A DNA stretch of 48,852 nucleotides from a virus, in IMG/VR virus record IMGVR_UViG_3300010399_000003, positions 1 to 48,852 of that record; one strand, 5' to 3'. A program made the position numbers and the translations under genes. The notes beneath the pieces were generated by a model that was not told the origin of the DNA, did no database searches, and saw nothing but the letters and a program-made list of their open reading frames with translations. Shown here one piece after another: positions 12,175 to 12,235 of the stretch; position 1 is the first letter of the stretch, and every line of letters begins with the position of its first letter.

Positions 12175-12235
12175 GGAACCAGAAACCGTGGTGGAGAACC
12201 ACGGTTGCCCGAATGGACGGGCCTGATGAGGTTCC
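12175..12235 (+). ncRNA. type II hammerhead-like ribozyme motif, copy 1
   Basis: Stem II GGAACC (12175-80) pairs with GGTTCC (12230-35). A, then GAAA (12182-85). Stem III ACCGTGGT/ACCACGGT (12185-92 / 12198-205). H17 = T12206. Stem I GCCCG-AATGGA-CGGGC (12207-22). Core CTGATGA (12223-29). Predicted cleavage at 12206/12207. Confidence 0.75.

What the first reader, a model, noticed from the sequence alone, without database searches (positions are those of the whole stretch)
12175..12186. Invariant one-nucleotide insertion (A) between stem II and G12, and a G.U closing pair, in all ribozyme copies
In the minimal hammerhead consensus, C11.1 is followed directly by G12-A13-A14. All five copies here instead read (C/U)-A-GAAA (12180-12185, 13662-13667, 17347-17352, 18241-18246, 21269-21274).

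In four copies the 10.1-11.1 pair would be G.U rather than G-C. Conservation of the extra A across otherwise diverged copies argues that it is functional and not an error. Two readings are possible:
- the elements are a structural variant of the hammerhead core, or
- they are hammerhead-derived elements that have lost or changed activity, for example protein-assisted or regulated cleavage.
Basis: seen in the sequence. Interest (0 to 1): 0.5.

Follow-up and report, generated by a model that had tools for sequence, protein, structure and literature searches.

The report
Phage hammerhead ribozymes with extra A
Five self-cleaving hammerhead RNAs between early genes of an uncultured phage belong to a widespread, so far uncatalogued sub-lineage that always keeps one unpaired adenine at the foot of stem II and carries the next gene's ribosome-binding site inside the ribozyme.

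Summary
The window holds exactly five type II hammerhead motifs, all on the + strand. Each reads stem II 3' strand, (C/U), A, GAAA. G10.1 pairs with U in four copies and with C in one.

A census of relatives gave 119 distinct copies in 49 viral and metagenomic loci. Every copy keeps an unpaired purine there, but its place moves:
- Y-A-GAAA: 70 copies
- A-C-GAAA, AA-C or GA-C: 44 copies
- one to three pairs higher: 5 copies

Twelve loci hold both main forms. Stem II covaries in both registers and is 100% paired. None of 63 canonical type II hammerheads from the same collection has the extra A.

This is therefore a selected, unpaired A at the base of stem II. It is not a fixed insertion in the core, and these are not decayed relics.

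The sub-lineage also has:
- a 5-bp stem I with an AAUNRA loop
- a 6-9 bp stem II
- no conserved pseudoknot in the five window copies (not tested family-wide)
- a start codon 7-8 nt after G10.1, so that G8-A9-G10.1-G10.2 (GAGG) can serve as the Shine-Dalgarno sequence

Rfam 15 does not detect any copy. Cleavage activity and the role of the A remain untested.

The parts
12175..12235 (+). Hammerhead copy 1 (type II). Stem II 3' strand 12175-12180 (GGAACC); unpaired A 12181; G12-A15.1 12182-12185; stem III hairpin to U16.1 at 12205; U17 at 12206, with predicted cleavage after it; stem I hairpin 12207-12222; CUGAUGA 12223-12229; stem II 5' strand 12230-12235. The downstream ATG is at 12237. This is the only copy with a G10.1-C11.1 pair, and it has U17. 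No ORF stop abuts it. A GC-rich hairpin followed by a T-rich tail lies at 12140-12174.
   Evidence: 61.9 bits, E 3e-14
13657..13733 (+). Hammerhead copy 2. Stem II 3' strand 13657-13662 (GGAGCU); unpaired A 13663; GAAA 13664-13667; long stem III; C17 at 13704; stem I 13705-13720; CUGAUGA 13721-13727; stem II 5' strand 13728-13733. The upstream stop TAA is at 13654-13656 and the downstream ATG at 13735.
   Evidence: 41.4 bits
17342..17416 (+). Hammerhead copy 3, directly after the DNA ligase gene. The stop TAG at 17340-17342 overlaps the stem II 3' strand at 17342-17347 (GGAUCU). Unpaired A 17348; GAAA 17349-17352; C17 at 17387; stem I 17388-17403; CUGAGGA 17404-17410; stem II 5' strand 17411-17416. 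A downstream TTG at 17418 is in frame with ORF 17394-17879.
   Evidence: 47.5 bits
18236..18317 (+). Hammerhead copy 4. Stop TAG 18234-18236; stem II 3' strand 18236-18241; unpaired A 18242; GAAA 18243-18246; C17 at 18288; stem I 18289-18304; CUGAAGA 18305-18311; stem II 5' strand 18312-18317 (GGAUCC). The downstream ATG is at 18320.
   Evidence: 37.3 bits
21264..21324 (+). Hammerhead copy 5. Stop TAG 21262-21264; stem II 3' strand 21264-21269 (GGAGCU); unpaired A 21270; GAAA 21271-21274; C17 at 21295; stem I 21296-21311; CUGAGGA 21312-21318; stem II 5' strand 21319-21324. The downstream ATG is at 21328.
   Evidence: 65.1 bits, E 4.5e-15. It is identical in strains L203 and L167.

Best explanation
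The five elements are functional type II hammerhead self-cleaving ribozymes. They belong to a distinct sub-lineage found so far only in uncultured phage and metagenome contigs.

Proposed course of events:
1. Each ribozyme folds in the nascent polycistronic early transcript.
2. It cleaves 3' of C17 (U17 in copy 1) by the usual G12/G8 acid-base chemistry.
3. The upstream message ends in the stable stem III hairpin with a 2',3'-cyclic phosphate.
4. The downstream message begins with a 5'-OH and the stem I hairpin. This is followed by CUGANGA-GG and then, 7-8 nt after G10.1, the start codon.

G8-A9-G10.1-G10.2 (GAGG) can act as the Shine-Dalgarno sequence. After cleavage the two products are held together only by stem II. 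When stem II melts, the ribosome-binding site is freed.

The extra A is an obligatorily unpaired, presumably extruded, purine in the 3' strand at the foot of stem II. It lies next to Y11.1 on either side, or one to two pairs higher.

Because its position can shift, it is unlikely to take part in the chemistry. I infer that it acts as a hinge or spacer. It would uncouple the long stem II (6-9 bp, with no conserved pseudoknot in the window copies) from the G12.A9 stack, so that stems I and II can pack in this architecture.

Shown: the anatomy, the covariation, the conservation and the gene geometry. Inferred: cleavage itself, unmasking of the ribosome-binding site, and the hinge role.
For: - The consensus core (CUGANGA, GAAA, A15.1-U16.1, H17) is intact in all five copies and in the relatives.
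- All three stems covary: 97% of cells pair and 10 of 17 pairs show double changes.
- Stem II covaries in both junction forms and is 100% paired.
- An unpaired purine is present in 119 of 119 distinct copies from 49 loci. It takes three placements, and 12 loci hold both main forms.
- No extra A occurs in 63 canonical type II hammerheads sampled with a pattern that does not constrain the junction.
- In strains 92-96% identical to the window, all differences lie in stem III, mostly at its apex. There are none in the core, stems I and II or the A.
- In four of the five window copies the upstream stop codon abuts or overlaps stem II. In all five, a start codon lies 7-9 nt after G10.1. Family-wide the start codon lies mostly 7-8 nt after G10.1, against a median of 27.5 nt in canonical type II hammerheads.
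- A9.G12 and G10.1-C11.1 normally stack directly in crystal structures (PMC11300833). An added residue must therefore be extruded.
- A natural, active hammerhead with an extra A on the opposite strand, between A9 and G10.1, is known (PMC1636495).
Against: - No cleavage data exist for any member.
- Rfam's hammerhead models give no hit, even at E<=10 on a 91-nt query.
- The hinge role is pure inference. No 3D modelling was possible.
- The copies may form one lineage. The scan anchored on CTAGAAAC found no A-type hammerhead with a different stem I. Counts of copies therefore overstate the number of independent events.
- The family was collected with a stem I / loop I pattern, which biases conclusions about those two parts.
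Confidence: 0.6

Rival explanations
1. The unpaired A is a tertiary-contact donor, through an A-minor or Hoogsteen interaction with stem I or loop I. In this reading it replaces the loop I / 3'-tail pseudoknot that stabilises canonical type II hammerheads. The ribozyme would need it for fast cleavage at physiological Mg2+.
For: - The five window copies show no conserved pseudoknot and carry a conserved AAUNRA loop on a short 5-bp stem I. Canonical type II hammerheads have a 6-8 bp stem I, a 3-4 bp stem II and potential loop I / 3'-tail pairing.
- The two type III permuted members keep both the A and the AAUNRA loop, although their stem II is a closed hairpin.
- Known hammerheads use a conserved A-U reverse Hoogsteen pair between stems I and II (PMC6155905).
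Against: - The A sits 0-3 pairs from the junction, whereas loop I tops a 5-bp stem.
- Its place shifts by up to three pairs.
- Copies with deviant loops (AUUA, ACAA, ACGAAA, ACUUAA) still keep the A.
- There is only a weak, phylogenetically uncorrected association between the A's placement and loop position 5 (odds ratio 3.1, p = 0.01), and no pattern within genomes.
Confidence: 0.2
2. The extra A, together with the G.U closing pair, deliberately weakens or gates the ribozyme. Cleavage would then be slow, or would depend on a phage or host protein or on ribosome traffic. This would time the expression of early genes.
For: - The natural extra A10 of the CChMVd hammerhead lowers the cleavage rate and serves another function (PMC1636495).
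- Natural core insertions can make activity depend on conditions, as with the saltern hammerhead HHmeta (PMC3088659).
- Ribosomes that terminate upstream, at UAG 9 nt before G12 or at U11.1-A-G12 itself in 11 copies, must unfold the stem II 3' strand.
Against: - No candidate protein partner co-occurs. Neighbouring genes differ between copies and mostly lack annotation.
- The shifting position of the A argues against a precise protein recognition site.
- Nothing computational indicates low activity.
Confidence: 0.1
3. The A is a neutral quirk inherited from the founder of one ribozyme lineage. That lineage spreads by duplication and gene conversion within phage genomes. The A is tolerated, not selected.
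For: - All A-type copies share the same stem I and loop I type, so they may be one lineage.
- Copies within a genome are strikingly alike in stem I, as in L003, which suggests concerted evolution.
Against: - A one-base deletion would give the consensus junction, yet none is seen in 119 distinct copies whose stems have turned over by compensatory changes.
- The junction has been remodelled repeatedly (Y-A, A-C, AA-C, GA-C, A-UC), always keeping an unpaired purine. Both main forms coexist in 12 loci.
Confidence: 0.07
4. The A is there for coding reasons. It creates a stop codon (U11.1-A-G12 = UAG, or U-A-A in the AA-C form) that ends the upstream gene at the edge of the ribozyme core.
For: - In 11 U-A copies the upstream ORF ends at the junction UAG.
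- In 5 AA-C copies it ends at UAA built from the bulged As.
Against: - About 85% of copies, including window copies 2-5, stop upstream, typically at UAG 9 nt before G12.
- The commonest bulge form, U-A-C, makes no stop codon.
- C-A copies, including window copy 1, make none either.
Confidence: 0.03

Closest known systems
Type II hammerhead ribozyme (Rfam RF02276; Perreault et al. 2011, PMC3088659)
   Same: - Same permutation: an open stem II, with stems I and III capped.
- Same consensus core and the same UH cleavage site.
- Same habitat, as clusters between phage genes, where processing of long transcripts into gene-length mRNAs was proposed.
   Different: - Canonical members have C11.1 directly before G12, a 2-4 bp stem II, a 6-9 bp stem I and potential pairing between loop I and the 3' tail (the pseudoknot described by Perreault et al.). 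Their start codon lies about 27 nt downstream.
- The present sub-lineage has an obligatory unpaired A, a 6-9 bp stem II, a 5-bp stem I with an AAUNRA loop and no conserved pseudoknot in the window copies. Its start codon lies 7-8 nt after G10.1.
- RF02276 scores canonical copies at 38-58 bits and reports none of these.
- The 2011 curation rejected hits with mispairs next to the core or with bulges in short stems.
CChMVd (+) hammerhead with the extra A10 between A9 and G10.1 (De la Pena and Flores 2001, as described in PMC1636495). By my recollection, sLTSV has an extra U at the same place.
   Same: - One extra nucleotide at the stem II / core boundary of a natural hammerhead that still works.
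- It is interpreted as an extruded residue kept for a reason other than catalysis.
   Different: - The extra residue is on the opposite (5') strand of stem II.
- It occurs in a single viroid hammerhead, not a family of more than 100 copies.
- That hammerhead is type III and lies in a circular RNA replicon.
- Five of the 63 canonical phage type II copies seen here also carry an extra U on that 5' side.
Natural core-insertion variants U13a, A6a and 2a/2b (Perreault et al. 2011)
   Same: - These are insertions in or next to the core of phage or metagenomic hammerheads.
- U13a was argued to point outward and be tolerated.
- One member of the present family (L010) carries GAUAA, which matches U13a, in addition to the U-A junction.
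   Different: - They lie at different positions.
- They were described as rare individual variants, some with impaired activity, not as a family-wide obligatory feature.
Hammerhead of haloviruses HF1/HF2, 13 nt upstream of a helicase start codon (Perreault et al. 2011). A synthetic analogue, from my own knowledge, is the ribozyme insulator of the RiboJ type.
   Same: - A ribozyme sits just upstream of an early-gene start codon.
- The processed 5' end defines the translated mRNA.
   Different: - Here the Shine-Dalgarno sequence would be made of the core and stem II nucleotides themselves.
- Here the ribozyme also supplies the 3' end of the preceding gene's message.

Membership tests
Hammerhead ribozyme class | Core strand C3-U4-G5-A6-N7-G8-A9 | tested here: met
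   CUGAUGA, CUGAGGA or CUGAAGA occurs in all five copies. It also occurs in all 119 relatives, where it was required by the search pattern.
Hammerhead ribozyme class | G12-A13-A14, then an A15.1-U16.1 pair, then H17 (not G) at the cleavage site | tested here: met
   GAAA is followed by a stem III whose first pair is A-U in 23 of 23 sequences. Positions 16.1-17 read UC in 115 copies, UU in 3 and UA in 1.
Hammerhead ribozyme class | Three helices (I, II, III) around the core, supported by covariation | tested here: met
   Stem II is 100% paired, with 3-4 of 6 pairs doubly changed. Stem III has 5 of 6 pairs doubly changed. Stem I has 2 of 5, with the rest fixed by the search pattern.
Hammerhead ribozyme class | The 10.1-11.1 pair abuts the core, with N11.1 directly followed by G12 (the consensus junction) | tested here: not met
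   All five window copies have an A between Y11.1 and G12. In 44 relatives C11.1 does abut G12, but a purine bulge follows after the first pair. This is a departure from the consensus, not from the class. Active natural hammerheads with other one-base insertions are documented.
Hammerhead ribozyme class | Tertiary contact between stems I and II (loop-loop or pseudoknot) | tested here: inconclusive
   In the five window copies, pairing between loop I and the 3' tail does not follow the changes at 10.3, whereas the upstream strand does. This was not examined family-wide. Loop I is a conserved AAUNRA, but its partner is unknown.
Hammerhead ribozyme class | Site-specific self-cleavage giving a 2',3'-cyclic phosphate and a 5'-OH | not testable with these tools
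   This needs in vitro transcription and cleavage assays or end mapping.
Rfam RF02276 Hammerhead_II (as modelled) | Score at or above the gathering threshold of 37 bits | tested here: not met
   No hit on the window, on a 91-nt slice at E<=10, or on 13 family loci. The same tool finds canonical copies at 38-58 bits.
Rfam RF02276 Hammerhead_II (as modelled) | Short stem II plus a pseudoknot between loop I and the 3' tail | tested here: not met
   Stem II has 6-9 bp. The 3' tail is only 1-3 nt long before the start codon.

The most novel reading that the evidence does not exclude
The elements are ribozyme-riboregulators in which catalysis and translation are coupled.
- The Shine-Dalgarno sequence is built from G8-A9-G10.1-G10.2 and stays masked until cleavage and melting of stem II.
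- The obligatory unpaired A is the hinge, or the docking site for a phage or host factor or for the ribosome, that sets the timing of this switch.
- A phage would thereby programme the order and level of early-gene expression post-transcriptionally with a single 60-nt module.
Probability: 0.15. Interest if true: 0.7.

Novelty: new variant of a known kind. Interest (0 to 1): 0.45.

Why it matters
The biological role of bacterial and phage hammerheads is still an open question (PMC6155905).

This sub-lineage offers a compact and unusually informative case:
- More than 100 natural sequence variants show that one unpaired purine at the foot of stem II is compulsory, although the consensus forbids it.
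- The ribozyme's own core nucleotides lie where the next gene's ribosome-binding site must be.

This makes two ideas directly testable with simple constructs:
- Hammerheads lacking both a pseudoknot and loop-loop contacts may use another way to reach the active fold.
- Phage hammerheads may couple mRNA processing to the start of translation.

It also exposes a blind spot. Rfam 15 does not detect these elements, so automated annotation built on it will miss them in phage genomes.

Tried and rejected
- **Rfam searches.** I searched the whole window, a 14-kb slice and a 91-nt slice at E<=10, plus 13 family loci. None gave a hammerhead hit. A positive control showed that the tool works on canonical copies.
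- **Alternative stem II registers, including A paired with G10.1.** Rejected, because sliding the register drops pairing from 100% to 53-73%.
- **G10.1.A pair with a bulged pyrimidine.** Disfavoured. The residue next to the A is always C or U (70 of 70), as expected for a partner of G10.1. The unpaired residue in the bulge form is always a purine.
- **Pseudoknot between loop I and the 3' strand of stem II or the tail, as in canonical type II.** Rejected for the window copies. Position 10.3 (U, G or A) covaries with the upstream strand, not with loop I.
- **Stop-codon explanation for the A.** It holds for only about 16 of 110 copies.
- **Covariation between the A's placement and the loop I sequence.** The association is weak and uncorrected (p = 0.01), with no pattern within genomes.
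- **Scan of genome contigs.** Ten of the 11 hits are chance matches in coding DNA. Only one, a cut 3.8-kb Chloroflexota MAG contig, looks real.
- **Scan anchored on CTAGAAAC**, meant to find A-type hammerheads with a different stem I. Apart from already known loci it gave only chance matches, and it was truncated at 120 rows.
- **GenBank phages.** No match to 12 kb of the window or to the conserved 38-nt half of the ribozyme.
- **Primer tables of Perreault 2011.** They contain no member of this sub-lineage.
- **Weak Rfam hit to the hairpin ribozyme at 11052-11086.** It scores 19.7 bits against a threshold of 65 and lies inside an ORF, so I treat it as chance.

Full report
**1. The observation**

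Around each site the sequence has the full anatomy of a type II hammerhead, in this order:
- a 6-nt 3' strand of stem II
- the extra A
- G12-A13-A14-A15.1
- a stem III hairpin of variable length
- U16.1 and H17
- a 16-nt stem I hairpin, GCCNG-AAUNRA-CNGGC
- C3-A9, as CUGAUGA, CUGAGGA or CUGAAGA
- the 6-nt 5' strand of stem II

A simple descriptor scan finds only these five in the window. Minimum-free-energy folding gives the three-way junction for every copy. A covariance model built from relatives, run over the whole window with filters off, gives five hits of 37-65 bits (E 1e-7 to 4.5e-15). The next hit scores 10 bits.

G10.1 faces U in copies 2-5 and C in copy 1.

**2. Is the stem II register right?**

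A scan of IMG/VR for the stem I / core string and later of the metagenome collection returned 19 and 61 loci, many with 2-8 copies each.

For 23 distinct copies with the same Y-A-GAAA junction (alignment A2; stem III apex replaced by a fixed linker):
- Stem II pairs in 138 of 138 cells.
- Three of six pairs show changes on both sides.
- Pair 10.3-11.3 takes six different pair types.
- Sliding the 3' strand by one column lowers pairing to 53-73% and removes the double changes.

Stems I and III covary too.

**3. The A is conserved but not fixed in place**

The census covers all copies in the window, the 19 viral loci and the 61 metagenomic loci. It gives 119 distinct, cleanly parsed copies from 49 loci:

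| Junction | Copies |
|---|---|
| U-a-GAAA | 63 |
| C-a-GAAA | 7 |
| a-C-GAAA | 31 |
| aa-C-GAAA | 11 |
| ga-C-GAAA | 2 |
| a-UC-GAAA | 2 |
| a-AUC-GAAA | 2 |
| c-ACC-GAAA | 1 |
| no unpaired residue | 0 |

I inspected ten poorly parsed copies by eye. Seven of them keep the extra A. In the other three the parse picked the wrong GAAA (L008), the junction could not be resolved (L168), or the contig ends inside the element (L154).

In the a-C form the junction is the textbook one, with G10.1-C11.1 directly next to G12. The unpaired A is then a bulge after the first pair. This register is also 100% paired, with four of six pairs doubly changed (alignment A3).

Twelve loci contain both forms side by side. 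An example is L003, which has GAACC-UA-GAAA and GAACC-AC-GAAA opposite the same GGGUUC.

Two distinct type III permuted members have a closed stem II hairpin. They are found in L001/L002 and in L005/L016/L019. They carry U-a-GAAA and U-a-C-GAAA respectively.

In the bulge forms position 11.1 is always C.

**4. Is the A special to this group?**

A scan with a pattern that leaves the junction, stem I and loop I free (GAAAC..GTC..CTGATGAG) gave 63 distinct, structurally valid type II hammerheads:
- 57 have C11.1 directly before GAAA.
- 5 have an extra U on the other strand, between A9 and G10.1.
- 1 could not be parsed cleanly.
- None has an extra A before G12.

These canonical copies have a 6-8 bp stem I and a 3-4 bp stem II. 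Their tails could pair with loop I, as in the pseudoknot described by Perreault et al. (PMC3088659). Rfam's RF02276 recognises them at 38-58 bits. Its consensus shows a 2-bp stem II with C directly before GAAA.

The same library reports nothing for the window, for a 91-nt slice at E<=10, or for 13 family loci. The 2011 curation explicitly discarded hits with mispairs next to the core or with bulges in short stems. This probably explains why the sub-lineage is not modelled.

The A-type copies may therefore be one lineage.

The sub-lineage is absent from 50,697 GenBank phage records. It is practically absent from one-per-species bacterial genomes, where 1 plausible hit stands against 10 chance hits.

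**5. Selection**

Metagenomic contigs L175, L192, L203 and L167 are 92-96% identical to the window over 1-4.6 kb.
- Copies 1 and 5 are identical in them.
- Copy 3 differs by a 2-nt loop insertion.
- Copy 4 differs only within stem III.
- The core, stems I and II and the A are untouched.
- L192 differs from the window at 170 positions in the 4.6 kb of shared sequence that contains copies 3 and 4.

Taken together, three facts show that an unpaired purine at the foot of stem II is selected: the 119-to-0 census, the compensatory turnover of the neighbouring pairs, and the repeated remodelling of the junction that always keeps an unpaired purine. This is inference from the counts. The copies are not phylogenetically independent.

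**6. Context**

The window is the nucleotide-metabolism and replication module of an uncultured phage:
- thymidylate synthase, 1899-2960
- SNF2 helicase, 4870-6537
- DNA ligase, 16398-17342
- UvrD-like helicase, 23020-24537

Each ribozyme exactly fills an intergenic gap. In copies 2-5 the upstream stop codon (TAA or TAG) abuts or overlaps the first G of the stem II 3' strand. In all five copies an ATG or TTG follows 1-3 nt after the stem II 5' strand.

Family-wide, the start codon lies 6-11 nt (mostly 7-8 nt) after G10.1, against a median of 27.5 nt for canonical type II copies. Positions 10.1-10.2 are GG in 111 of 119 copies. G8-A9-G10.1-G10.2 therefore spells GAGG, or GGAGG when N7 is G, at about 5-6 nt from the start codon. 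This is the usual Shine-Dalgarno geometry, as judged from established knowledge.

In 11 U-a copies the upstream ORF ends at the UAG made of U11.1, the extra A and G12. In 5 aa-C copies it ends at UAA made with the bulged As. This is a curiosity, but it does not explain the A in the other roughly 85% of copies.

**7. Mechanism**

Shown: a consensus hammerhead core, three covarying stems, purifying selection, and the gene geometry.

Inferred: the RNA cleaves after C17 or U17. The upstream message then ends in the stem III hairpin. The downstream message begins with a 5'-OH, the stem I hairpin, the GAGG and the start codon. The two products are joined only by stem II, and its melting frees the ribosome-binding site. 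Perreault et al. already proposed that clustered phage hammerheads process long transcripts into gene-length mRNAs, and showed such cleavage for three prophage clusters.

In crystal structures A9.G12 stacks directly on G10.1-C11.1, and C17 stacks on G12 (PMC11300833). A residue added between 11.1 and G12, or just above, must therefore be extruded.

Several considerations bear on the role of the A:
- It can sit 0-3 pairs from the junction, so a direct role in chemistry is unlikely.
- In the Y-a form it does not lower nearest-neighbour helix stability.
- The type III members, whose stem II is an intramolecular hairpin, also keep it. A pure 'weaken stem II for product release' role is therefore unlikely as well.

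My best guess is a hinge or spacer. It would decouple a long stem II, which shows no conserved pseudoknot in the window copies, from the core stack so that stems I and II can pack.

A specific tertiary contact is the main rival. I found no convincing covariation between the A's placement and loop I, and copies with deviant loops keep the A.

**8. Comparison with the known**

The class is hammerhead and the permutation is type II. The closest precedents for an extra residue at this boundary are:
- the CChMVd (+) hammerhead, with A10 between A9 and G10.1 on the other strand (PMC1636495)
- the rare U13a, A6a and 2a/2b insertions (PMC3088659)

An obligatory unpaired purine on the 3' strand of stem II, in a family of more than 100 copies, is not described in the papers I could search. 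Nor is its combination with a 5-bp stem I, an AAUNRA loop, no apparent pseudoknot and an embedded ribosome-binding site. It is also not captured by Rfam 15.

I cannot exclude that it appears in unpublished or supplementary alignments. I rate it a new variant of a known kind.

**9. Limits**

- There are no experimental data.
- The family was ascertained through a stem I / loop I pattern.
- Copies are related by descent.
- The role of the A is inferred.

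Noticed in passing
window 13681-13696, 17364-17379, 14683-14698, 20760-20775; weaker matches at 30925-30940 and 11597-11616: A 16-nt motif GATTTCCAAA(C/G)TTAGG recurs five times, against 0.29 expected by chance. Two copies form the apex of stem III in hammerhead copies 2 and 3. Two more lie in intergenic gaps, one of them 7 nt before the ATG at 20782. In another phage (L004) the stem III apices share a different motif, (A/G)ATCTGGC(A/C)CCA. 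It could be a phage-specific promoter or a protein-binding site lodged in the ribozyme's variable arm.
   Followed up: partly
window 11210-11790 and 12140-12174: An ORF-poor stretch of about 580 nt precedes hammerhead copy 1. Directly abutting copy 1 is a 10-bp GC-rich hairpin (CCGGGGCCGG-TATCAT-CCGGCCCCGG) followed by TTCACTTTT, which looks like a terminator. The consensus scan did not list it. Copy 1 is also the atypical copy: it has C11.1 and U17, and no upstream stop codon abuts it.
   Followed up: no
L001/L002 (about 4540-4640) and L005/L016/L019: Type III permuted members of the same sub-lineage have stem II closed by a hairpin and stem III open. They keep the AAUNRA loop and the unpaired A, and a separate Shine-Dalgarno sequence lies downstream.
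   Followed up: partly
L010, minus strand, stem I of the copy starting near position 6833: One family member reads CUA-GAUAA, with an extra U inside the GAAA. This matches the U13a variant described by Perreault et al. 2011, and it occurs in addition to the U-A junction.
   Followed up: no
L013 (minus strand, 1751) and L173 (minus strand, 8435): Two family copies carry an extra U between A9 and G10.1 (CUGANGA-U-GG...) in addition to the bulged A on the other strand. Five of 63 canonical type II copies have the same extra U.
   Followed up: no
window 11052-11086 (+): There is a weak match to the Rfam hairpin ribozyme model (19.7 bits against a gathering score of 65, E 6.6). It lies inside ORF 10974-11309 and is most likely chance.
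   Followed up: no
window 43244-43880 (gene 43214-45418, minus strand): A degenerate coding repeat with a 15-nt period (GTATCAGNATGTGCT-like units) lies within a 734-aa protein that has no family match.
   Followed up: no
window 41910-43214 (minus strand): A radical SAM domain protein lies in the minus-strand gene block, next to large proteins without family matches.
   Followed up: no
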